64,000 nt of DNA. It comes from an uncultured Spirochaetales bacterium (lineage in GTDB: Bacteria > Spirochaetota > Spirochaetia > SPDA01 > CAZSGZ01). The DNA lies in assembly GCA_964440465.1 (NCBI GenBank), contig CAYTSI010000002.1, forward strand, positions 15,559 through 79,558, read 5' to 3'. The notes under the pieces are model-generated. The model had not been told where the DNA came from and did not search any database. It was given only the letters and a program-made list of their open reading frames with translations. A program made the translations under genes and the position numbers. Shown piece by piece: positions 43,904 to 53,033 of this stretch (positions are counted from its first letter, which is position 1; every line of letters starts with the position of its first letter).

Positions 43904-45016
43904 TTACTGTTCCTTTCCGGTAAGGCAGGACCCTTTTTTTATAACTTTCCGCTGTTTAATGTCTGATTTTGCAGCACCCCAGCCGATACACGAAGCCGGC
44001 TCCATAACGGTCCCTCCGGGGACCTCGATGTCGAAACCGATAACGGAAAGACCCGAATGGACCTGTTCGGGATAGTCCTTGTTGACCGCTTTCGACATTC
44101 CACCGATTATAGATTTGTCGCCGATTGTCGTTCCGGGAGAAGGTTCGAGGGTGAAGGGCAGCAAAACGGCGTTTTTAACTACAGCCTTTTTCCCAATGGT
44201 GTGGCCGGGAAAAATAACGCTGTCAATTATTTTTGCTCCTTCCCGTACGGTAACGTTTGTAAAAAGAAAGGAATTTTCTACATAGCCGTCAATCCTGCCT
44301 CCGGGTGAAAACAGAGAGTTTTTAACCGAACCGGTTCTCCCGATTTCCGAGTCTTTGGGCTTTCTTTCGTACAGGCGGTGCAAATCGGGATGCAGAAAGG
44401 TAGGGGCGTCGACACATTTCCGGTAACTGTTGTACAGACTGTAAATTGTAGTATGCAGAAATAGGGTGCCGGAGATTTCCCGCTGGTCGGTAAAATGAAG
44501 AAGAAGATGGGCAAAGAGTCCTTCCGCTGTTCTGTCCCGTCCTTCCTTCCGAAGGGAAGAAAGAACATTCGAAAAAAACCGGCCGGTGCAGAGAAACAAA
44601 TCAACGGGGACCGTGCCGACGGAGCACTTGATTAATTGTGTATCGGCGAGTGTTTTTATCATGTTCTGAAGACTGCCGCTGTCGAGGGTTAAAAGCGAAG
44701 ACATGTTCTGGATAATGAGGGAGGCCGGGTCTTTTTTCAGGATAACGTCGATTACCCGCTGAATGTCGTGTTCATAGGGAATAATATCAATATCGATACT
44801 GTAGTCTTTTATTTTATCCTCTAGTACCTTTACCCGCTTCGGCACGGTAACGATCCCGCAATGTGCCGACGGAAAAGAAAGAATATTAGCGGCGGAGATT
44901 TCCAGACCTGTAAAGCCGCCCGCCGCCGGAAGGTCTGAAAAAAAGTAACCCGGCGGAAAACCGGGACAGTCCGTAAATGTACCTGTATCGAAGAGAAGAT
45001 AATATGTTACGGCCAT
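43904..45016 (-). CDS. GlgC/GlgD-like nucleotidyltransferase-family protein with C-terminal left-handed beta-helix; N-terminal NTP-binding motif degenerate
   Basis: C-terminal hexapeptide-repeat region resembling ADP-glucose pyrophosphorylase (SVKNSLFSPGGRIDGYVENSFLFTNVTVREGAKIIDSVIF). No GxGxRL loop found at the N-terminus. Confidence 0.4.
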   Translation of the reverse strand: MAVTYYLLFDTGTFTDCPGFPPGYFFSDLPAAGGFTGLEISAANILSFPSAHCGIVTVPKRVKVLEDKIKDYSIDIDIIPYEHDIQRVIDVILKKDPASLIIQNMSSLLTLDSGSLQNMIKTLADTQLIKCSVGTVPVDLFLCTGRFFSNVLSSLRKEGRDRTAEGLFAHLLLHFTDQREISGTLFLHTTIYSLYNSYRKCVDAPTFLHPDLHRLYERKPKDSEIGRTGSVKNSLFSPGGRIDGYVENSFLFTNVTVREGAKIIDSVIFPGHTIGKKAVVKNAVLLPFTLEPSPGTTIGDKSIIGGMSKAVNKDYPEQVHSGLSVIGFDIEVPGGTVMEPASCIGWGAAKSDIKQRKVIKKGSCLTGKEQ

Positions 45017-45019
45017 ATG

Positions 45020-46411
45020 TTATACTGCCTTAAAATACAGTTCTTTTTTCAGTCCGGACTTTGCCTTCGCGGTAATTTTTTCACCTAAAACGGAGCCGGG
45101 CACATCGTCCGGCAGGGTAAACCACTTCGTATCAAGGGAAGAAAGTGTAAGCGCGTCGCCGCTGTACCTAATTACCGCTACTGTTTTTTCCCCTTTTTCA
45201 CGGACAACGACATAACCGGCGCCGTCACGGTCGAGGTAGATACTCTCTCCTTCTGCCAGTGTAATCGGCGCCGCCTGGGCGGGGCGGTTGTCGATATACA
45301 GTCTGAATTCACAGGGTTTATTTTTTTTCACGCGCAGCAGCAGCAGTACCGCCCCTGCCGCGGCGGCGAGAAAAAGGAGGGCGATAACGGGAATTATCCA
45401 AATGTTGCTGCCGAAAAACCCTTTCACTTCAATTGTTACATCTGCCTGAGCGGGGGTAAAAACAGTCAGCCCCTGAAAGGTAAAGGTGAGGGTTGTATCG
45501 TATGTTCCCGGCGCGAGGGCCTGATCGATGGTAATGGGAATTTGTATTTCTTCCGCGCCTTCTTTCGGCAGCGTATATGAACCGCCTTCCGCGAGTACCT
45601 CGTTTTCTACACCGGAAGCATGGAAATCGGCGATAATCCTGTTTAATACGATTTCCTGCTCACTCGAATAACCCTGAACCGAAAGCGGAACGGTCAGTAC
45701 GCTCTTCCCGTGTTTGTCCGGCGGCCGGACACGCGGCGGAGACGTTATTGTAATTGTACCGAAAAGGTCTTCGGTTTTTTCGGTAATTTCCTCCTGCGTC
45801 GGTTCTTCACTGGTTTCGATATACCCGCCGGAGAGCTGTTCCGCGAGTTCTTTCGCGGCGGAGGCGGTACCGATCCCTAAAACATGGATTTTCCAGCCTT
45901 CTTTCTGGATGGTCCGTGCGTTTTCCAAAAACGCGTGGTTGAAGGTGCCGTCGGGAGAATAATATTTACTCTCCTCGGGCGCCTCCTGCTTTCCGTCGGT
46001 AACAAGGAGGAGATATTTCCGCCGGTCCGGCTGTTCATAGTTTTCGATGGCCGCTTTCAGGGTGTCTAAAGCGTTTCCGATATCGGTATAACTCCCGTCG
46101 GCGGCAAGGGAGCCGATTATCCGCTTGAATTCGAGTTTTGCATCTGTTCCCGCCGTGTCCTCCGCGATAAGAACTTCAGCTTTGCCGTAGAACTGTATGA
46201 CCACGAACCTGTCACCCGGTATGAGGGTATCTTCGATAAGTGTGTCGATAACATAATTCTTGACGGGACCGATCTCTTCCTCCATGGAAAGAGATTTATC
46301 CAAAACAACGAAAATGTCGATATTCTCTTCCCGTTGGTCGGAAAATAGTGAAAAAATGGACACGAGGGATAGAATTACACCTAAAACCATATACTGTATT
46401 TGTTTATTCAT
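45020..46411 (-). CDS. von Willebrand factor A domain membrane protein (vWA-TM-cytoplasmic domain)
   Basis: N-terminal signal/TM. MIDAS DKSLSM...TDG. Internal TM IWIIPVIALLFLAAAAGAVLLLL. About 110-aa C-terminal domain of unknown type. Confidence 0.65.
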   Translation of the reverse strand: MNKQIQYMVLGVILSLVSIFSLFSDQREENIDIFVVLDKSLSMEEEIGPVKNYVIDTLIEDTLIPGDRFVVIQFYGKAEVLIAEDTAGTDAKLEFKRIIGSLAADGSYTDIGNALDTLKAAIENYEQPDRRKYLLLVTDGKQEAPEESKYYSPDGTFNHAFLENARTIQKEGWKIHVLGIGTASAAKELAEQLSGGYIETSEEPTQEEITEKTEDLFGTITITSPPRVRPPDKHGKSVLTVPLSVQGYSSEQEIVLNRIIADFHASGVENEVLAEGGSYTLPKEGAEEIQIPITIDQALAPGTYDTTLTFTFQGLTVFTPAQADVTIEVKGFFGSNIWIIPVIALLFLAAAAGAVLLLLRVKKNKPCEFRLYIDNRPAQAAPITLAEGESIYLDRDGAGYVVVREKGEKTVAVIRYSGDALTLSSLDTKWFTLPDDVPGSVLGEKITAKAKSGLKKELYFKAV

Positions 46412-46475
46412 ACTCCGCCCCTTCTATAGTATGAGAATACCATAGGATGGGAAAGTAAAAAAGCAGAAAAAACGC

Positions 46476-46489
46476 AAAAAAAAAAAAAA
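46476..46489 (+). repeat. A14 homopolymer in divergent intergenic/promoter region
   Basis: acgcAAAAAAAAAAAAAAcatacTTTACA read directly. Lies 67 nt upstream of the 46557 ATG and 65 nt upstream of the vWA start on the other strand. Confidence 0.9.
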
Positions 46490-46556
46490 CATACTTTACA
46501 TTTAGCCCACCTTATTGTTAAGCTGTAACTGAATACAATCGTAAGGAGAAATAGAT

Positions 46557-48611
46557 ATGGGAAGTGTAGATCTGCCTAAAAGCCCGATGGTATTTCATCC
46601 GGAAAAACGGAGCGCTGTAGGGTCTCGTAACTCCTTGGCACAAGAAAGCAGAGATCAGCAAAAAGAAGTCGACAGACTGTTAGAGGAAGAGGTCGACAAG
46701 GTCATAAATCATATAAATGCAAAACTGCCAAGAGAAGTGCTCGAGCGTCTGGATGTCATGGGCGGGTTGAAAGAAAAGTTGTACAACTATTTCAACCAGA
46801 ATTACCAAAACATGTTTAACCGTTACATCACTACTACAGAGGATGAAATGGTTAAAAAAGTCAGGAACTATATCGACAAGGAGGAAATGAAAGTCCTCAC
46901 GCGGTATACTCCGAAGGAGATCGCCGAGCTTCTCGATCAGGTCGGCGGCATGGACAAGTTTAATACCGGTGAAATTGAAAAATCCGTGGTGAATATGTAC
47001 GGTCACCTTCAGGGTCACATCCAGCGCGGGCTGAACGACCTTGAAAACCATACAAACTCCCTTCTCCGGCAAAAAACCGATGTCGGTGCTTTCATACGGG
47101 GTGAAAATGCCTATTCCATCGTCAAGTGTTCCTTTAAGGACAACATCAGGAGACCGAAAACCGTAACCGACGTCAAACTGTCGGTCAATATCCTCGATTC
47201 CGAACTCATCAGTCCTATTTTTCACTATCAGGTAACCGTTGAATATCTGGTAAAAGACCTGATTTCGAAAAACATCATGGACACCATCGATAAGGAAATC
47301 GAAAAATACAAAGACGAACTTATCGATGAAGGAAAGGAAGAACCGAACGACAGCGAAATTATCTTCGAAAAGATGAACAGGGTAACGGATCACACCGACG
47401 ATGATCAGGACAATCCCAAATCGAAACGATATAAATACCTCGCGAAAGATTTGATGGACAGGATCGAAGGATTACGGGCTGAAATTGATCCCGAAGAATT
47501 TGACGCGGCCAACATCAGAGAAAACATAAAAGAGATAATCGACATCGAAAATATTCGTAATAGGGGATACAACACTGCGATCAATTCTATTACCAGTATC
47601 CTCGACACGTCCAAAATGGGATATCAATTTGTCGAGAATATGAAAAACACCCGGGAATTGATTCTGCGGGAATACGAAGACACCGATCCGGAACACCTTC
47701 CGGACGAGCGGTACCAACTTACGCTGAAGTATTACGACAACGCTCAGCTGAACGAAGAACGGAAAGCCTACGATGTCATGATCCAGTCCTTTCAGGTAGA
47801 AACAAGCCATCTCTGGGATGTTCTTGAAATGGTGTATGTCGACTCAAAATTTATGAAAGGAGTTGTCGATTTCGACGATTTGGCACGGAAATACAAAAAC
47901 AAGATTAAAAAGAAAATCAAAATGAAAACCGGCGATCCTCTATATGAAGATATCGAGAAGAGCTGGGATGAAATTTCGTTCGTGAAACCCGCTGAAACAA
48001 AAGTCGAACAGCTGAACCGGACTTTTCAGTTTGAAAAGGACAAGGAAAAGCGAAAAATGATCCTCATGAAAGACAAACTGCAGGAGATGTACGGTTTCCG
48101 GTACCCGATCCAGCGGAGAGTTATGGAAGACCGCTTGTCCTTCCTCGAACGGGAGTTCAACAAATTCGATTATATCATCAATCCGTATCACATCCAGCCG
48201 GGGCTCTTGTTAGACGTGGACATTACGTCGATTAAGCGGAAAAAGGCGACCCTCGACGGCATGGCAAACGTGTTGAATGAATTTCTCCATGGAGTATCGA
48301 AGGGTTTCCAGGACGCCGCTTTCGCGTCATTCTCCAGAAGAAGGTCCACCATCCGTGACGACATTGAAATGAGTTTCTCCACGGACATGGAGGGAGAAGC
48401 ACAGGCGCCCGGTCAGAGCTACCTCGATATGCTGAATGCTCCCGCGGAAAGTGAATCCGTTGAACCTTCAGAGATGGTCGAAGAATCAGTACCATCCCCG
48501 CCGAAACGAAAAAGCAGCACAAAGAAAAAAGGTGTAGTAGACTCCGGATCCAAATCGCGGAGAGGAAGAAAACCGAAAAAAAGTTCGGGTGACGAACTGA
48601 AAACTCTGTAA
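46557..48611 (+). CDS. highly charged coiled-coil protein, candidate cytoplasmic filament protein CfpA-like
   Basis: 684 aa (about 79 kDa), E/K/D-rich, long predicted helices, Lys-rich C-terminal tail. AGGAG RBS 8 nt before the ATG. Followed by a strong intrinsic terminator. Neighbouring ppdK echoes the T. pallidum cfpA neighbourhood (TP0746-TP0748). Assignment is from memory of size/composition/context only. Confidence 0.45.
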
Positions 48612-48616
48612 TTATA

Positions 48617-48654
48617 AAAACCTATTTCCCTTCGGGGAAATAGGTTTTTCTTTC
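48617..48654 (+). terminator. rho-independent terminator
   Basis: AAAACCTATTTCCC-ttcg-GGGAAATAGGTTTT perfect 14-bp stem followed by TCTTTC. Confidence 0.65.
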
Positions 48655-48680
48655 ATACCGATTTTACAAAGGATACAAAT

Positions 48681-49721
48681 ATGGTTGCTGCACAAAAGAA
48701 ATATGAGAACCTGAGTACGAGGGAGGGATTTAACGACTCCCTGCTCCATTTCAGGGCCGTATCGTCTATTTTAGGTGACTTTGAAGGGAAGACAAATCTT
48801 GCAGACCTTGTCCGCGAGCTTATCGATGACAAGAAAATTACAATTCCACAGATAGATGCAATCGTTCACGCTCTCCTCGTCGACAAATACGGATATTTTT
48901 TCAGGTCAGTTAACTTTGAAAAAAGTCTTACTGATTTCAGTACGATTAGTGCTGAAACAAAAAAATGGAAAGCCGTCGATGTTGTAATTGCTTATTGCCA
49001 TCCTGAATTAGGCCTTACCCTGATAAATCCGAAAAACGAAGACCATTTTGAAGCGGTTACACAGTTGAAGAAGGACGAACTCGCCGTTGTTTACGCCGGG
49101 GCCTTTGATAAGGAGCTGGATAAAAAAACAGCCGATACCGCCCTCGATACAATGCTCGCGCTTTTGAACGGAACGTCGAAGAAAACTCCTGCCGCCCTGT
49201 TAAAGGGAAGTTTTTCTTACAAAAAGAAAGAAAAGAAAGCAGCAGTGCCGGAAAAGGCGAAAAAATCCACCCGGAGCAAATCGGCCGCGAAGGCGGCCCC
49301 GAAAGCCGCGGCAGCCGGCACCGGGGCGAAAACGCCGGAAAAAGCGGCAAAACCCGCGGCGGCGCCTGAACAAGCAGCTTCATCCGGACCGAAGCGGATG
49401 ACACCGATGTATTCCGTGCCGGTAACAAACGAGCTCTTTCACAATGGAAATGTAGAAGCATGGAAACGGATTATTCAGAGCTATACGGCGAAACATCCGG
49501 ACTGTGAAGTTCTCGTTTTCTACGACGGTGAAAGGATCCACGACATCAACACCCTCTTTAAATGGGGGAAAGTAAAGCACGGCAGCGCGATTTTGTTTGC
49601 CGTTGTCGGTGCCGAGATAAAGGATGTTGCAAAATTGCAGAGATACCTTCAGCAGGGTGCGAGCCACCGTTTTGAAGATTTTCTGAAATTTCCTGTAAAT
49701 CAAATAATCGATCTCTTTTAG
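48681..49721 (+). CDS. hypothetical protein with histone-H1-like Lys/Ala/Pro-rich internal linker
   Basis: Two globular halves separated by KKEKKAAVPEKAKKSTRSKSAAKAAPKAAAAGTGAKTPEKAAKPAAAPEQ. Confidence 0.5.
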   Translation: MVAAQKKYENLSTREGFNDSLLHFRAVSSILGDFEGKTNLADLVRELIDDKKITIPQIDAIVHALLVDKYGYFFRSVNFEKSLTDFSTISAETKKWKAVDVVIAYCHPELGLTLINPKNEDHFEAVTQLKKDELAVVYAGAFDKELDKKTADTALDTMLALLNGTSKKTPAALLKGSFSYKKKEKKAAVPEKAKKSTRSKSAAKAAPKAAAAGTGAKTPEKAAKPAAAPEQAASSGPKRMTPMYSVPVTNELFHNGNVEAWKRIIQSYTAKHPDCEVLVFYDGERIHDINTLFKWGKVKHGSAILFAVVGAEIKDVAKLQRYLQQGASHRFEDFLKFPVNQIIDLF

Positions 49722-49743
49722 GAAATTGGAAACGAGGAAATCT

Positions 49744-52389
49744 ATGAAAAATAATATCCATTTGTTCAGCAAAAAAGAATACGTGAAGGACGATGAAATC
49801 CTGGAAAAAATCGGAATACGGGGCAGGGAGGCAAACGATTTTGCCAGCCTCAATTTACCGATCCTCCCGGGATTCATTGTCGATTCCGATCTTGCCGGAA
49901 AAATTGAGGATACCGATTTAAAACCGTATGTAAAAGACCACATGAAAAAGGTGGAGAAGGACACGAAAAAAGTTTTCGGCGACCCGGAAAATCCTATGCT
50001 CGCGAAAATTGTTATCAGCCCGAACTTAGCAATTGTACGGTATCCGACGCTTCACAATTACGGATTGACCGAAAAAACCCTCCCCGGTTTCAACGCGTTT
50101 GTGGGAGGAAACTTCGCCTTTCACGAACTGCAGTTTCTCATCAAGGGGAGTCTTGAGATCGAGATAAAAATCGCGGAACTCGAAAAGCGGGCAAAAGACG
50201 TAAAAACAATTGAAAAGACCCTGGAAAAACTTGAACAAGAGATGGAAAAGCCTGTTCCCGCGAATTTACGGGAAAAGTCACTGGAAAAATACAAAGCGTT
50301 GCTTCCCGAAGGGTTTTTCGAAGATGCCTACACCCAGCTCGAACTCGCGCTGAAACGGATCAGCCGGATGCTCGCGTTAGACGAAATGAACGACGACGAC
50401 GCGGCCCTTATTATTCAGCCGATGGTCCACGGTAATTACGGCAAAGATTCAGCGAGCGGGATGTTTTTCACACGGGATGTGGTTACCGGAGAAAAAAAGC
50501 TGCAGGGCGCCTTTCAGGTAGACAAGTTCGATACCGTCGAATCGGAAGGAAAGGACATCAATAAAATCGGTAAGGATAGCCTGAAAGAACTTGAACGGAT
50601 AGCCGCTATTGTCGAAGACCATTTCAAAGAGATTCGCAGAATACGGTTTACCATTGAAAACGGCAAGGTATGGCTTATCGATCAGCGGGCGCTGATGACA
50701 AAATCGACCCAGGCGGAAATCCAGACCCTCCTCGACCTCAACAAACGGAAAATCGTGGATGAAGAATATGTCCTTAATGCAATAAAGCCGGGCCAGCTGA
50801 ACGAAATCCTTCATCCGATTATCGATGTAACATCGGTCAAAAACTTGAAAACGATTTCCGGAGGCATTGCCGGGGCTCCCGGCGCGGCCATCGGAAAAAT
50901 TTATTTTTCCACCGACGGTCTTATTGAAGCGAGGAAAGAGGCACTGCAGAAAGGCGAGGACACCCGGTTCATCCTCTGCATGTCCGCCACCTTTGCCGAA
51001 GACGTTAAAGCCATCGAAGTTTCCACCGGTGTTTTGAGTAACGAAGGCGGGTACGCGGCGCACGCGTCGGTTGTCGCCCGCCAGTACGGTAAGGTTTCCT
51101 TAGTAAAACCGGAGATGAAAATTCGGGGCAACAAAGCGCTGATCGGTAAAATTACCATAAAAGAAGGTGATTACATCAGCTTAAGCGTCCCGAACTACGG
51201 GGACCCGGAAGTTTACCTCGGCAAAGCCGGTCTCATCGAACCGGACCCGAAAAAGTCGGGCCTTCTCGACTTTATCGATATTATCAACAAGCATCTATCG
51301 GATTTTCACGTCCGGGTAAATGCCGACACACCCCGAGACGCGGAGCTTGCCTTGAGTTTCGGCGCCCAGGGAATCGGGCTGTGCCGGACGGAACATATGT
51401 TTTTCGATGAAAAACGGATCAATGTGTTTCGGGAGATGATCCTCTCCGAAACGGAAAAAAAACGGAGCGCCATCCTCGCGAAGCTGAAAACGATGCAGAA
51501 GAGCGATTTTTACAAATTGTTCAAAATTATGGACGGAAAGGAAGTAACAATCCGCCTCTTAGACGCCCCGCTTCACGAATTTCTTCCCCATAACAAGGAA
51601 GAGATGGCCGTTTTCTTAGAATATTTAAAGAAGCAGAACAAGGGAAAAGCCATTCCGAAAACGGAAATACAGGCCGCCATGGACCAGCTCGACGAGTTCA
51701 ATCCCATGTTAGGCCACCGGGGCTGCCGTATTGCCGTATCATATCCCGAAATCTACCATATGCAGGTGGAGGCAATTTTCGAGGCCGCGTATGCCCTGAA
51801 AAAGGAAGGCGGGAAAGTATTTCCGGAAATCATGATCCCCCTCGTGGGGAATGAGAACGAACTCAAAATTATCGTTCACGGGAAACGGATCGAAGGAACA
51901 ACTTACAGGGGCCTGATGGAAATTGAAGAGGAGGTGCGGAAGAAACTCAAAGCCCGCCCTCTGGATTTCAAAGTAGGCACCATGATTGAACTTCCCGTCG
52001 CGGCGTTAGGAGCGGGGAAAATCGCGAAGTACGCCCAATTCTTTTCGTTCGGAACAAACGATTTAACACAAACAACCCTCGGTCTTTCGAGGGACGATTT
52101 CAACTCATTTATGCCGGATTACACCCAATTCGACCTGCTCGCGGGAAACCCCTTCGAGTATTTGGATGAACAGGTGAAGGAACTGATAGCTACCGCGGTC
52201 CGCAGAGGGACAATAACACGCCCGGACCTGAAAAAGGGACTGTGCGGTGAACACGGGGCCGTACCGGAAAATATTAAATTTTGCATGGATGTCGGATTAG
52301 ATTACGTTTCATGTTCCACTTACAGTGTGCCGATAGCAAACCTTTCGGTGGTGCAGTACACCCTCAAAAAACGCGCCGGATCGGCCTAG
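49744..52389 (+). CDS. ppdK: pyruvate, phosphate dikinase
   Basis: Phospho-His region GGYAAHASVVARQYG. PEP-utilizing signature GLCRTEHMFF. C-terminal TIM-barrel motifs. ATG 49744 with GAGGAAA RBS. The track start 49726 is TTG. Confidence 0.8.
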   Translation: MKNNIHLFSKKEYVKDDEILEKIGIRGREANDFASLNLPILPGFIVDSDLAGKIEDTDLKPYVKDHMKKVEKDTKKVFGDPENPMLAKIVISPNLAIVRYPTLHNYGLTEKTLPGFNAFVGGNFAFHELQFLIKGSLEIEIKIAELEKRAKDVKTIEKTLEKLEQEMEKPVPANLREKSLEKYKALLPEGFFEDAYTQLELALKRISRMLALDEMNDDDAALIIQPMVHGNYGKDSASGMFFTRDVVTGEKKLQGAFQVDKFDTVESEGKDINKIGKDSLKELERIAAIVEDHFKEIRRIRFTIENGKVWLIDQRALMTKSTQAEIQTLLDLNKRKIVDEEYVLNAIKPGQLNEILHPIIDVTSVKNLKTISGGIAGAPGAAIGKIYFSTDGLIEARKEALQKGEDTRFILCMSATFAEDVKAIEVSTGVLSNEGGYAAHASVVARQYGKVSLVKPEMKIRGNKALIGKITIKEGDYISLSVPNYGDPEVYLGKAGLIEPDPKKSGLLDFIDIINKHLSDFHVRVNADTPRDAELALSFGAQGIGLCRTEHMFFDEKRINVFREMILSETEKKRSAILAKLKTMQKSDFYKLFKIMDGKEVTIRLLDAPLHEFLPHNKEEMAVFLEYLKKQNKGKAIPKTEIQAAMDQLDEFNPMLGHRGCRIAVSYPEIYHMQVEAIFEAAYALKKEGGKVFPEIMIPLVGNENELKIIVHGKRIEGTTYRGLMEIEEEVRKKLKARPLDFKVGTMIELPVAALGAGKIAKYAQFFSFGTNDLTQTTLGLSRDDFNSFMPDYTQFDLLAGNPFEYLDEQVKELIATAVRRGTITRPDLKKGLCGEHGAVPENIKFCMDVGLDYVSCSTYSVPIANLSVVQYTLKKRAGSA

Positions 52390-52487: not shown

Positions 52488-53033
52488 TTACCAGATATTG
52501 AATTTTTTCAAATTCTCAATAACAATTTTCGCGGCTTTTTTCGCGTCCGCGGAAGGGACCTGCGCTTCTTTGTTCAATGTTTGGGTGAAAAAATATTCCA
52601 ATGTTGTAAGGACTTCCGGCATGGTATAAAAAACAAGGGCGAAATTGACTCCCGTGGGCCGTAAAACGGTGAATGAGGAGTAAGAGATAATCGGCTCCTT
52701 GCTTACCATAATTTTCGTTTGGTTTTTCGCGGTATGTATTTCGAGTTCTTTAAACCGGTGAGGGATTCCCTCTCTTGATTTTCTGCTGACGGGTTCAACA
52801 TATTTTTCCGGATATGAAGCGGGCTCTACAAGGATGTAGAGTTTGTTGCCGTCGGTTTGGAAGGTAAGACCCTCCTCGGTAAGATAAATGCTTTTTACAC
52901 CGCTGTAGGCGACAATTTCGTATATTGAATAGGTTGATTTACTATCGAAAAATGAAGAAACGATATAACCGCCGTCTTTCGGCAGTTTTTCCGTTGAGTA
53001 TGCTTGAAACAGATCTAACGCTTTTTCGGCCAT
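52488..53033 (-). CDS. hypothetical protein
   Basis: 181-aa ORF with an RBS (GGAGG) upstream. No recognisable motif. Confidence 0.45.
   Translation of the reverse strand: MAEKALDLFQAYSTEKLPKDGGYIVSSFFDSKSTYSIYEIVAYSGVKSIYLTEEGLTFQTDGNKLYILVEPASYPEKYVEPVSRKSREGIPHRFKELEIHTAKNQTKIMVSKEPIISYSSFTVLRPTGVNFALVFYTMPEVLTTLEYFFTQTLNKEAQVPSADAKKAAKIVIENLKKFNIW

What the first reader, a model, noticed from the sequence alone, without database searches (positions are those of the whole stretch)
46557..49721. Candidate cytoplasmic-filament (CfpA-like) locus: 79-kDa charged coiled-coil protein, terminator, histone-H1-like-linker protein, ppdK
The 684-aa ORF at 46557-48611 is strongly hydrophilic, E/K/D-rich and alpha-helical, with a poly-Lys tail. 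It has the best RBS and the cleanest intrinsic terminator in the window, a signature of an abundant structural protein. Its size (about 79 kDa) and its position next to ppdK match what I recall of treponemal cfpA (T. pallidum TP0748 near ppdK TP0746). The downstream 346-aa protein carries a KAAPKAAA/AKKS-type linker reminiscent of histone H1 or bacterial nucleoid-associated tails. It could be a filament-associated or DNA-binding partner. Neither protein has a motif I can assign from sequence alone.
Basis: partly seen in the sequence, partly recalled or inferred. Interest (0 to 1): 0.6.

Follow-up and report, generated by a model that had tools for sequence, protein, structure and literature searches.

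The report
Spirochaete CfpA filament gene cluster
This is the well-known spirochaete cytoplasmic-filament gene cfpA with its two conserved downstream neighbours, and comparing many genomes suggests those neighbours (a protein of unknown function and a glycolytic enzyme) work physically with the filament.

Summary
The 684-aa ORF (46557-48611) is an orthologue of CfpA, matching NCBIfam NF040882 over its full length at 1195.6 bits (cutoff 500). The 346-aa gene is the TP_0747-family gene (Pfam PF27497, "TP_0747_N"). It is followed by ppdK, as in T. pallidum (TP0748, TP0747, TP0746). The size (79.8 kDa), hydrophilicity, RBS, terminator and K/A/P-rich linker are all real. The "coiled-coil" label is not supported. 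So the locus is a new member of a known kind.

Comparison adds more:
- The cfpA, TP_0747, PPDK-like order holds in 78 of 80 genome loci and in lineages where CfpA is only 31-64% identical.
- In three of those distant lineages the PPDK-like protein has lost catalytic residues, or its whole phospho-histidine domain, yet stays in the triad. This argues for a structural association.
- A terminator after cfpA is conserved in function (70 of 80 loci) but not in sequence.
- Most CfpA tails carry an AT-hook-like RGRP core. It is degenerate in this window.

These points yield testable candidates for the unidentified filament-associated components.

The parts
46412..46556 (+). cfpA upstream intergenic region (145 nt), shared with the divergent VWA gene. 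It contains a long A-tract (about 46463-46490). AAGGAG (the RBS) lies at 46543-46548.
   Evidence: Sequence read. AAGGAG-N5-9-ATG is found at 46543. The consensus sigma-70 scan found no promoter on the + strand here, so the promoter is not located.
46557..48611 (+). cfpA: cytoplasmic filament protein CfpA, 684 aa, 79.8 kDa. The conserved core is aa 5-609 (nt 46569-48383).
   Evidence: ORF. NF040882 cfpA_ASD equivalog at 1195.6 bits (cutoff 500), full length. 2885 homologues, the best 120 at 73-98% identity, all carrying PF27473. Composition.
48384..48608 (+). CfpA C-terminal tail (aa 610-684), predicted disordered. It has conserved islands YLDMLN (622-627), KGVVD (658-662), a basic AT-hook-like patch RRGRKPKK (668-675; nt 48558-48581) and a terminal DELKTL peptide.
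   Evidence: The tail lies outside the NCBIfam model and has pLDDT about 30. In the 67-homologue alignment RGR occurs in 61 of 67 and RGRP in 40 of 67. Pfam AT_hook scores 16.4-17.2 bits (cutoff 17.4) on homologue tails but gives no hit on the window tail.
48616..48654 (+). Intrinsic terminator (or attenuator) of cfpA: a perfect 15-bp stem with a TTCG loop, followed by TTTTTCTTTC.
   Evidence: dG -20.7, z -5.8, 0 of 200 shuffles. An equivalent hairpin plus T-run lies within 110 nt of the cfpA stop in 70 of 80 related loci, against 2 of 80 coding-sequence controls, and the stem sequences differ.
48681..49721 (+). TP_0747-family gene (346 aa). The N-domain is aa 1-175 (48681-49205). The disordered K/A/P-rich linker is aa 176-236 (49206-49388). 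The C-domain is aa 237-346 (49389-49718). The RBS AAAGGA is at 48668-48673.
   Evidence: ORF. PF27497 'TP_0747_N' on an identical public protein. AF2 mean pLDDT 82.5, with two folded domains and a disordered linker. HPr-family proteins are the top structural hits. Family conservation.
49744..52389 (+). ppdK-like gene: pyruvate,phosphate dikinase-type PEP-utilising enzyme. It is 881 aa from ATG 49744; an alternative TTG start at 49726 gives 887 aa. The phospho-His motif GGYAAHASVVAR is at aa 435-446 (nt 51046-51081).
   Evidence: Pfam PEP-utilizers_C, PEP-utilizers and PPDK_N. TIGR01828 aligns over the full length at 660.7 bits, below its cutoff of 843. All catalytic motifs are intact. Public gene calls use the 881-aa start.
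45020..46411 (-). Divergently transcribed conserved neighbour: a VWA-domain membrane protein (463 aa). It has an N-terminal hydrophobic segment (aa 5-23), a VWA domain (aa 32-190), a TM segment (aa 339-357) and a C-terminal domain of about 105 aa.
   Evidence: Pfam VWA and VWA_2. Hydrophobic segments. It lies directly upstream of cfpA on the opposite strand in nearly all of the 80 main-group loci, but not in the divergent triads.
52488..53033 (-). Convergent conserved neighbour: a 181-aa protein with no family assignment.
   Evidence: No Pfam or NCBIfam hit. It is found directly after ppdK on the opposite strand in most main-group loci, at 47-77% identity.

Best explanation
The locus is the cfpA gene cluster of an uncultured microbial-mat spirochaete.

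Shown:
- cfpA encodes the roughly 80-kDa subunit family of the cytoplasmic filament ribbon. In Treponema this ribbon runs under the inner membrane, parallel to the periplasmic flagella.
- The gene has a strong Shine-Dalgarno site and is followed by a conserved intrinsic terminator.
- Only about 22 nt separate the terminator T-run from the next start codon.

Inferred: the downstream TP_0747-family gene and ppdK are most likely expressed by partial read-through. This would give much CfpA and little of the two partners.

Inferred from comparative genomics: CfpA, the TP_0747-family protein and the PPDK-type enzyme form a physically associated module. The TP_0747 protein has two folded domains joined by a flexible, usually basic linker. 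It would act as an adaptor that couples the PPDK-type protein to the filament. It is a candidate for the unidentified bridging or accessory components of the ribbon.

Inferred: the disordered CfpA tail carries conserved short motifs, namely a basic AT-hook-like patch and a C-terminal peptide. It most likely tethers the filament to partners, possibly the nucleoid.
For: Identity:
- NF040882 matches over the full length at 1195.6 bits, cutoff 500.
- Pfam names CfpA_C and TP_0747_N appear on identical or near-identical public proteins.
- T. pallidum numbering is 0746 for ppdK and 0748 for cfpA.

Expression architecture:
- RBS.
- Terminator at dG -20.7, z -5.8.
- The terminator is functionally conserved in 70 of 80 loci with unrelated stem sequences, against 2 of 80 in the coding-sequence control.
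- Gaps are 69 nt (cfpA to TP_0747) and 22 nt (TP_0747 to ppdK).
- cfpA is listed among the highly expressed T. pallidum genes.

Association:
- The gene order cfpA, TP_0747, ppdK holds in 78 of 80 genome loci. The two exceptions are truncated contigs.
- The triad also occurs with CfpA at 64% (L093), 48% (L089), 46% (L085), 42% (L090) and 31% (L088) identity. Gene boundaries abut or overlap in L089, L090 and L093.
- In L089, L090 and L088 the PPDK-like protein has lost PEP-site and Cys-loop residues. L090 has the phospho-His replaced by Tyr. L088 lacks the whole swivel domain. All three stay in the triad.
- Pairwise-identity matrices of CfpA and PpdK correlate at r = 0.90, with partial r = 0.79 after controlling for two neighbouring genes (exploratory).
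- P346 C-domain identity tracks CfpA identity across lineages.

Tail: motif islands sit in an otherwise hypervariable tail. Canonical KKRGRPKK recurs in a clade only 31-33% identical. Pfam AT_hook scores just under its cutoff. The T. denticola cfpA mutant shows chromosome condensation and filamentation (PMC3398590).
Against: - No direct evidence of physical interaction exists here. Conserved gene order could reflect co-expression only.
- The main-group PPDK keeps every catalytic motif (65 of 65 loci). In T. pallidum it is regarded as a glycolytic enzyme, so it need not have any filament role.
- Some CfpA paralogues (T. primitia P0243, P0272, P0253) lie without the partners.
- The terminator between cfpA and TP_0747 argues that the genes are at least partly uncoupled. 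L089 and L093 have no room for one.
- The AT-hook core is degenerate in this window (RGRKP; no Pfam hit) and absent from many divergent members.
- The mirror-tree statistics are not independent observations.
- The CfpA structure model has low confidence (pLDDT 55.8), so nothing can be said about how it polymerises.
Confidence: 0.75

Rival explanations
1. Phosphorelay reading. The TP_0747-family protein is an HPr-like phosphocarrier. The phospho-histidine of the adjacent PPDK-type enzyme, a relative of PTS Enzyme I, would pass a phosphoryl group to an invariant histidine (H254) of the HPr-like domain. The gene order would mirror ptsH-ptsI. The phosphorylated protein would then regulate filament assembly or metabolism.
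For: - Foldseek independently puts HPr, Crh and NPr in about 35 of its top 45 hits (probability 0.85-0.98, target-normalised TM 0.55-0.74).
- H254 is invariant in 82 main-group sequences. By my secondary-structure-guided alignment it lies in the beta1-alpha1 loop, where HPr carries His15.
- H254 is present exactly where the PPDK-like protein keeps its phospho-His (main group, L093, L089). It is replaced where that His is lost (L090, L088). There are no mixed cases.
- The CfpAs of L090 and L088 are only 29% identical to each other.
Against: - There is no sequence-level link to HPr. Pfam PF00381 gives no hit, a C-domain profile search of PDB sequences finds no HPr, and hhalign probability is about 1%.
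- Foldseek E-values (0.07 or higher) are not significant on their own.
- No equivalent of HPr Arg17 is present (the sequence reads H-N-G-N).
- The triad persists in lineages lacking both histidines, so phosphotransfer cannot be the conserved core function.
- The co-distribution rests on only five lineages.
Confidence: 0.2
2. Neutral or co-expression reading. The gene order is conserved only because ppdK, a highly expressed glycolytic gene, and cfpA share a strong promoter region or an old operon. The TP_0747 protein would have a function unrelated to the filament, for example as a PPDK accessory or regulatory protein.
For: - ppdK and cfpA are both among the more highly expressed T. pallidum genes.
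- PPDK catalytic motifs are intact in all 65 main-group loci.
- A terminator separates cfpA from the two downstream genes in most loci.
- TP_0747 and ppdK are much more tightly spaced than cfpA and TP_0747 in the window (22 nt against 69 nt).
- The P346 N-domain co-varies more with PpdK than with CfpA (partial r 0.60 against 0.47).
Against: - The order is kept down to 31% CfpA identity, and in lineages where the PPDK-like protein is catalytically degenerate. A shared need for glycolytic expression cannot then be the reason.
- In L089 and L085 a second cfpA paralogue directly follows the PPDK-like gene, so the pair is bracketed by cfpA genes.
- Boundaries between cfpA and TP_0747 are 3 nt or overlapping in L089 and L093.
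Confidence: 0.2
3. The 346-aa protein is a nucleoid-associated DNA-binding protein that acts through its histone-H1-like K/A/P-rich linker.
For: - The window linker has pI 10.3 with 23% Lys and 31% Ala.
- 70 of 82 homologues have a linker net charge of +5 or more.
- The cfpA mutant phenotype involves the nucleoid.
Against: - Linker length (41-86 aa) and sequence are unconserved. 11 of 82 homologues have neutral or acidic linkers, down to -15.
- Conservation is concentrated in the two folded domains.
- No DNA-binding fold was found.
Confidence: 0.1
4. CfpA is an intermediate-filament-like coiled-coil rod protein, as the finding's title implies. It would polymerise as crescentin or FilP does.
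For: - The literature calls the filaments 'intermediate-like' (PMC3398590; PMC11057208).
- The protein is largely helical and highly charged.
Against: - No heptad signal exceeds shuffles, while the tropomyosin control is strongly positive.
- Predicted helices are at most 45 residues and are separated by beta-hairpins at 186-212, 358-393 and 549-558.
- No hit to any IF or coiled-coil family in Pfam, NCBIfam or PDB sequences.
Confidence: 0.1

Closest known systems
CfpA, cytoplasmic filament protein of Treponema (T. pallidum TP0748; T. denticola, T. phagedenis). NCBIfam NF040882, Pfam PF27473.
   Same: - Full-length match far above the equivalog cutoff.
- Same size class (79.8 kDa).
- Same downstream neighbours (the TP_0747-family gene and ppdK).
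- Strong expression signals.
   Different: - It comes from an uncultured microbial-mat spirochaete near the Marispirochaeta/Sediminispirochaeta group, not from a host-associated Treponema.
- Its C-terminal tail has a degenerate AT-hook-like core (RGRKP), whereas most homologues have RGRP.
PTS phosphocarrier HPr with Enzyme I (the ptsH-ptsI operon)
   Same: - One domain of the 346-aa protein has HPr as its best structural match by two methods.
- Its gene lies directly upstream of a PEP-utilising enzyme with a phospho-His swivel domain. This enzyme belongs to the Enzyme I superfamily, and the gene order matches ptsH-ptsI.
   Different: - No sequence similarity to HPr.
- No Arg17 equivalent.
- The protein is a two-domain, 346-aa protein with a disordered linker.
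- The enzyme is PPDK-type (ATP-grasp, swivel and TIM barrel), not Enzyme I.
- The candidate histidine is not conserved in distant lineages.
FtsZ-type architecture: a polymerising core, a disordered variable linker and a conserved C-terminal peptide
   Same: - The CfpA core is extremely conserved (mean pairwise identity 81%).
- It is followed by a hypervariable disordered tail that ends in short conserved motifs.
   Different: - No sequence or fold relation to FtsZ or tubulin, and no GTPase motifs.
- The analogy concerns layout only.
- Many divergent CfpA relatives lack the long tail altogether.
Bacterial intermediate-filament-like coiled-coil proteins (crescentin, FilP, Ccrp)
   Same: They form nucleotide-independent cytoplasmic filaments that affect cell shape or division. 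The literature groups CfpA with them as 'intermediate-like'.
   Different: CfpA shows no heptad coiled-coil rod. Its predicted secondary structure mixes medium-length helices with beta-hairpins.
Pyruvate,phosphate dikinase (TIGR01828)
   Same: - Full-length three-domain alignment.
- Phospho-His, PEP-site, GTND and catalytic Cys-loop motifs are all intact in the window and in 65 of 65 main-group loci.
   Different: - It scores 660.7 bits, below the equivalog cutoff of 843.
- The N-terminal nucleotide-binding motif reads GIRGREAN rather than the usual GGKGANL (the usual form is from my own knowledge).
- The Thr-Ser before the catalytic His is replaced by Ala-Ala or Ser-Ala.
- Orthologues in divergent triads are catalytically degenerate.

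Membership tests
CfpA (NCBIfam NF040882 / Pfam PF27473) | Full-length match to the curated equivalog HMM above its cutoff | tested here: met
   1195.6 bits against a cutoff of 500. Residues 5-609 align to profile positions 1-605 of 605.
CfpA (NCBIfam NF040882 / Pfam PF27473) | Hydrophilic cytoplasmic protein of about 79 kDa without signal peptide or TM segment | tested here: met
   79.8 kDa and GRAVY -0.80. No hydrophobic segment.
CfpA (NCBIfam NF040882 / Pfam PF27473) | Genomic context as in T. pallidum: cfpA, then TP0747, then ppdK | tested here: met
   The downstream gene is PF27497 'TP_0747_N', followed by ppdK. T. pallidum numbering comes from PMC8525777. The order holds in 78 of 80 loci.
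CfpA (NCBIfam NF040882 / Pfam PF27473) | Assembles into the cytoplasmic filament ribbon beneath the inner membrane | not testable with these tools
   This needs filament purification, immuno-EM or cryo-ET in the source organism or a close cultured relative.
Intermediate-filament-like coiled-coil proteins | Long central rod with heptad-repeat coiled coil | tested here: not met
   The heptad proxy gives CfpA a maximum of 0.57, against 0.55 +/- 0.06 for shuffles and 0.83 for tropomyosin. Helices are at most 45 aa with beta-hairpins between them (low-confidence model). The proxy is crude and no COILS or MARCOIL run was possible.
PTS HPr (Pfam PF00381) | HPr fold (open-faced beta-sandwich, beta-alpha-beta-beta-alpha-beta-alpha) | tested here: met
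PTS HPr (Pfam PF00381) | Sequence-profile membership | tested here: not met
   No PF00381 hit at E up to 10 for 40 C-domains. Profile search against PDB sequences finds no HPr.
PTS HPr (Pfam PF00381) | Phospho-acceptor His at the N-cap of helix 1, with a neighbouring Arg (His15 and Arg17) | tested here: inconclusive
   H254 is invariant in 82 main-group sequences and lies in the beta1-alpha1 loop by my manual alignment. There is no Arg equivalent. H254 is replaced in L090 (by Q) and L088 (by N).
AT-hook (Pfam PF02178) | R-G-R-P core flanked by K/R in a disordered region | tested here: not met
   The window has RRGRKPKK, with the Pro shifted by one, and gives no Pfam hit. In homologues the feature is met or borderline: RGRP in 40 of 67, KKRGRPKK in the distant P0320 and P0314, and PF02178 at 16.4-17.2 bits against a cutoff of 17.4.
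Pyruvate,phosphate dikinase (TIGR01828) | Score above the equivalog cutoff | tested here: not met
   660.7 bits against a cutoff of 843.45. The alignment is full length (23-877 against 12-862 of 865).
Pyruvate,phosphate dikinase (TIGR01828) | Catalytic phospho-His, PEP-site RTEH, GTND and Cys-loop motifs | tested here: met
   GGYAAHASVVAR, GLCRTEHMF, FSFGTNDL and GLCGEH are all present in the window and in 65 of 65 main-group loci. They are degenerate in L089, L090 and L088.
Histone-H1-like / nucleoid-associated basic tails | K/A/P-rich basic low-complexity segment conserved across the family | tested here: not met
   It is present in the window (pI 10.3). Across 82 homologues the net charge ranges from -15 to +15, with 11 at 0 or below, and the sequence is unalignable.
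Rho-independent (intrinsic) terminator | Stable GC-containing hairpin followed directly by a U-run, downstream of a stop codon | tested here: met
   15-bp stem, dG -20.7, z -5.8, then UUUUUCUUU, starting 5 nt after the stop codon. Functionally conserved in 70 of 80 loci.

The most novel reading that the evidence does not exclude
The spirochaete cytoplasmic filament ribbon is not a one-protein structure. CfpA, the TP_0747-family adaptor (with an HPr-fold domain) and a PPDK-type protein would form a conserved physical module. In this module a central glycolytic enzyme, or in some lineages its catalytically dead descendant, serves as a structural, bridging or regulatory component of a bacterial cytoskeleton. 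In most lineages a His-to-His phosphotransfer from PPDK to TP_0747 might couple the PEP/ATP state to filament behaviour.
Probability: 0.3. Interest if true: 0.75.

Novelty: new member of a known kind. Interest (0 to 1): 0.45.

Why it matters
CfpA has been known since 1996, and its loss in T. denticola causes chromosome condensation, filamentation and loss of pathogenicity (PMC3398590). It still has no solved structure and no assigned fold. I found no identified partner for it. The bridging and anchoring components seen by tomography (Izard 2004, cited) appear to remain unnamed.

The locus itself is ordinary: it is a correctly recognised cfpA cluster. The comparison across about 90 loci adds concrete, testable candidates:
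- The TP_0747-family protein and the adjacent PPDK-type protein stay with cfpA over very deep divergence, even after the enzyme's active site decays.
- One TP_0747 domain has an HPr-like fold.
- The CfpA tail carries an AT-hook-like motif that could explain the nucleoid phenotype.

If confirmed, this would link a bacterial cytoskeletal element to a core metabolic enzyme. It would also give a function to TP0747, a conserved hypothetical protein of the syphilis agent.

Tried and rejected

2. **Sequence searches against PDB.** Both proteins gave nothing at E up to 1.

3. **Local Pfam copy.** It has no model for either protein. The relevant families (PF27473, PF27497) are newer and were seen only as precomputed labels.

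4. **Sequence-level link between P346 and HPr.** hhalign also found no internal duplication between the N-subdomain and the C-domain.

5. **Which P346 domain is HPr-like.** This could not be settled.

6. **Apparent CfpA-TP_0747 fusion protein.** P0250 (841 aa), filed under the mussel Potamilus streckersoni, looked like a Rosetta-stone fusion. I rejected it. The gene span does not translate to the protein, so it is a spliced eukaryote-style gene model laid over a frameshift-rich bacterial contig.

7. **Primary CfpA papers.** You 1996 and Izard 2001 and 2008 are not held in the library. Their content is cited only through secondary papers or marked as my own knowledge.

8. **Literature searches.** No paper holds 'TP0747', and none of the papers listed co-mentions AT-hook with CfpA.

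9. **Promoter.** The sigma-70 consensus scan found no convincing cfpA promoter.

Full report
**Observation**

The ORFs are exactly as described:
- 46557-48611 (+), 684 aa.
- 48681-49721 (+), 346 aa.
- A PEP-utilising enzyme at 49726/49744-52389 (+).

The 684-aa protein is 79.8 kDa, pI 5.5, GRAVY -0.80, with D+E 18.4% and K+R 16.2%. It has no hydrophobic segment.

AAGGAG lies 8 nt before the ATG. It is one of only three perfect AAGGAG-N5-9-ATG sites in the window, and that count is itself at chance level.

Five nucleotides after the stop codon lies a perfect 15-bp hairpin with a TTCG loop, followed by a T-run. Its dG is -20.7 kcal/mol, z = -5.8, and 0 of 200 shuffles fold as well. It ranks in the top three of the window by energy and is the only uninterrupted long stem.

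The K/A/P-rich linker of the 346-aa protein is real (pI 10.3).

The 'coiled-coil' label does not hold. A heptad proxy scores CfpA no better than its shuffles, while tropomyosin is strongly positive. Predicted helices are at most 45 residues and alternate with beta-hairpins (low-confidence model).

**Identity**

NCBIfam's equivalog model for CfpA (NF040882) matches residues 5-609 against the whole 605-position profile, at 1195.6 bits with a cutoff of 500.

A search of the large protein collection gave 2885 homologues. The best 120 are 73-98% identical, and all carry Pfam PF27473 ('CfpA_C'). Several are named CfpA in Marispirochaeta, Sediminispirochaeta and Spirochaeta, although many are mis-named 'cytochrome c oxidase subunit II'.

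The 346-aa protein has 2834 homologues, all hypothetical, carrying Pfam PF27497. That family's name, 'TP_0747_N', refers to the T. pallidum gene between cfpA and ppdK. A T. pallidum transcriptome paper lists TPANIC_0746 as ppdK and TPANIC_0748 as cfpA (PMC8525777).

An identical copy of the 346-aa protein lies on contigs from a microbial-mat metagenome (PRJEB25599). The nearest genomes are uncultured Spirochaetales MAGs.

**Conserved context**

In 80 genome loci holding the closest CfpA relatives, tblastn finds the same block: NrnA (-), VWA membrane protein (-), cfpA (+), TP_0747-family gene (+), ppdK (+), and a 181-aa protein (-). The TP_0747 gene is present in 78 of 80 loci, and the two exceptions are truncated contigs.

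An exhaustive search of 1.84 billion cluster representatives shows that the family reaches down to about 25-30% identity (235 representatives at E up to 1e-3). The NCBIfam model still passes its cutoff for members at 42-64% identity. It fails for the most distant ones at 31-34%.

Context look-ups for these divergent members were decisive. The triad cfpA, TP_0747, PEP-utiliser recurs in:

| Locus | CfpA identity to window |
|---|---|
| L093 | 64% |
| L089 | 48% |
| L085 | 46% |
| L090 | 42% |
| L088 | 31% |

Gene boundaries abut or overlap in L089, L090 and L093. In L089 and L085 a second, tail-less cfpA paralogue follows the PEP-utiliser. Three other divergent CfpA paralogues lie alone: T. primitia ZAS-2 P0243, P0272 and P0253.

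**The enzyme**

The window's PPDK-type protein aligns over the full length with TIGR01828 but scores below its cutoff (660.7 against 843). It keeps the phospho-His motif (GGYAAHASVVAR), the PEP-site RTEH, the GTND motif and the catalytic Cys loop. So do all 65 main-group orthologues with full-length matches, and L093 and L085.

In three divergent triads the active site has decayed:
- L089 keeps the His but has RTEH changed to PCDQ, GTND to DTDM and GLCGE to GLLGR.
- L090 has the phospho-His replaced by Tyr, and its Cys loop is lost.
- L088 lacks the whole swivel domain.

That these proteins remain in the triad is the strongest argument that the association with cfpA and TP_0747 is structural rather than metabolic.

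An exploratory mirror-tree analysis on 48 sequences points the same way. The pairwise-identity matrices of CfpA and PpdK correlate at r = 0.90, with partial r = 0.79 after controlling for the neighbouring NrnA and 181-aa genes. The P346 N-domain follows PpdK (partial r 0.60). These values are not independent tests.

**The TP_0747-family protein**

The AF2 model (82 sequences, mean pLDDT 82.5) shows an N-domain at aa 1-175 (pLDDT above 90), a disordered linker at about 180-236, and a C-domain at 237-346.

No sequence-level link exists, and I could not determine which domain matches. A secondary-structure-guided alignment (my inference) favours the C-domain:
- TLFK aligns with SLFK.
- The register matches the local hhalign alignment.

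This alignment places the invariant H254 in the loop that carries His15 in HPr.

H254 is present wherever the neighbouring enzyme keeps its phospho-His, and it is replaced in the two lineages that lost it. The CfpAs of those two lineages are only 29% identical to each other. This is suggestive of a phosphorelay in most lineages. It rests on five lineages only, there is no Arg17 equivalent, and the triad survives without both histidines. I therefore rank phosphotransfer as a rival or add-on (about 0.2), not as the core function.

Residues invariant over the deepest comparison all lie in the N-domain: N18, H23, N39, Q57, D100, Y105, P108, G111 and N116. C-domain identity tracks CfpA identity (60, 60, 41 and 29% against 64, 48, 42 and 31%).

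The linker is usually basic but not always (net charge -15 to +15). A conserved H1-like DNA-binding role is therefore unlikely.

**Expression architecture**

A stable hairpin plus T-run lies within 110 nt of the cfpA stop in 70 of 80 loci, against 2 of 80 control segments inside coding sequence. The stems are unrelated in sequence, so the structure rather than the sequence is under selection.

In the window only about 22 nt separate the T-run from the next ATG, which has its own AAAGGA site. TP_0747 and ppdK are 22 nt apart. The simplest reading (inference) is one transcription unit with an attenuating terminator. It would set a high ratio of filament subunit to partners. An internal promoter within the 3' end of cfpA is not excluded.

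**The CfpA tail**

Residues 610-684 lie outside the family model and are predicted disordered. In 67 homologues the tail is hypervariable except for four islands:
- YLDMLN.
- KGVVD.
- A basic K/R-RGR-P-K-K core (RGR in 61 of 67, RGRP in 40 of 67).
- A terminal acidic-hydrophobic peptide.

Canonical KKRGRPKK recurs in a clade only 31-33% identical. Pfam's AT_hook model scores such tails at 16.4-17.2 bits against a cutoff of 17.4.

The window's own tail reads RRGRKPKK and gets no hit, so for this protein the motif is degenerate. Many divergent members have no long tail, or have an acidic one.

The layout resembles FtsZ: a conserved core, a disordered linker and terminal motifs. An AT-hook-type contact with DNA would fit the condensed-chromosome phenotype of the T. 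denticola cfpA mutant (PMC3398590). None of the papers listed in my search co-mentioned AT-hook with CfpA. This is a hypothesis only.

**Verdict**

The comparative results go beyond the annotation and give testable candidates for filament-associated components:
- A deeply conserved triad.
- Catalytically decayed PPDK-like members that stay in it.
- An HPr-like fold in the TP_0747 protein.
- A conserved terminator.
- AT-hook-like tails.

No interaction is shown here.

Noticed in passing
window 45020-46411 (-): A VWA-domain membrane protein (N-terminal hydrophobic segment, VWA domain, TM segment at aa 339-357, and a C-terminal domain of about 105 aa) is divergently transcribed from cfpA. It keeps this position in nearly all 80 main-group loci but not in the divergent triads. 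Its topology would suit a membrane anchor. In T. pallidum a nearby gene (TPANIC_0751) is annotated 'vwb'.
   Followed up: partly
window 52488-53033 (-): A 181-aa protein with no Pfam or NCBIfam family lies convergent to ppdK. It is conserved in this position in most main-group loci at 47-77% identity.
   Followed up: no
L089:12637-14550 and L085:10608-12467: In two divergent lineages a second, tail-less cfpA paralogue directly follows the PPDK-like gene, so the TP_0747/PPDK pair is bracketed by two cfpA genes. The L085 paralogue is 55% identical to the window CfpA. The L089 paralogue scores 765 bits on NF040882.
   Followed up: partly
L085 (GCA_016746295.1, contig JAEAOA010001653.1, 148 kb): A contig in the assembly of the freshwater mussel Potamilus streckersoni carries bacterial genes (sigma-54, SecA, cfpA, TP_0747, ppdK), annotated with spliced eukaryote-style gene models. 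These produce artificial 'fusion' proteins such as KAK3596126.1. The contig is presumably from a spirochaete symbiont or contaminant.
   Followed up: partly
public homologues of window 46557-48611: Many CfpA orthologues in NCBI MAG records are named 'cytochrome C oxidase subunit II'. This looks like a propagated mis-annotation.
   Followed up: no
window 49726-49746: The mechanical ORF for ppdK starts at TTG 49726 (887 aa). Public gene calls on identical contigs use ATG 49744 (881 aa), which has a GAGGA site 7 nt upstream.
   Followed up: partly
L001-L080, the 113 nt upstream of the ppdK match: A hairpin plus T-run also occurs at the TP_0747-ppdK junction segment in 23 of 74 loci. That is well above the coding-sequence control (2 of 80) though below the post-cfpA rate. 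It is not present in the window. It may be a second attenuation point in some lineages.
   Followed up: no
window 46463-46490: A long A-tract, including a run of 14 A, lies about 70-95 nt upstream of the cfpA start in the divergent intergenic region. It may be an UP-element or a bent-DNA feature. The consensus scan located no promoter.
   Followed up: no
window 43904-45016 (-): A 370-aa protein has only a C-terminal GlmU/GlgD-like left-handed beta-helix match and no recognisable nucleotidyl-transferase domain. It lies between NrnA and the VWA gene in a subset of loci.
   Followed up: no
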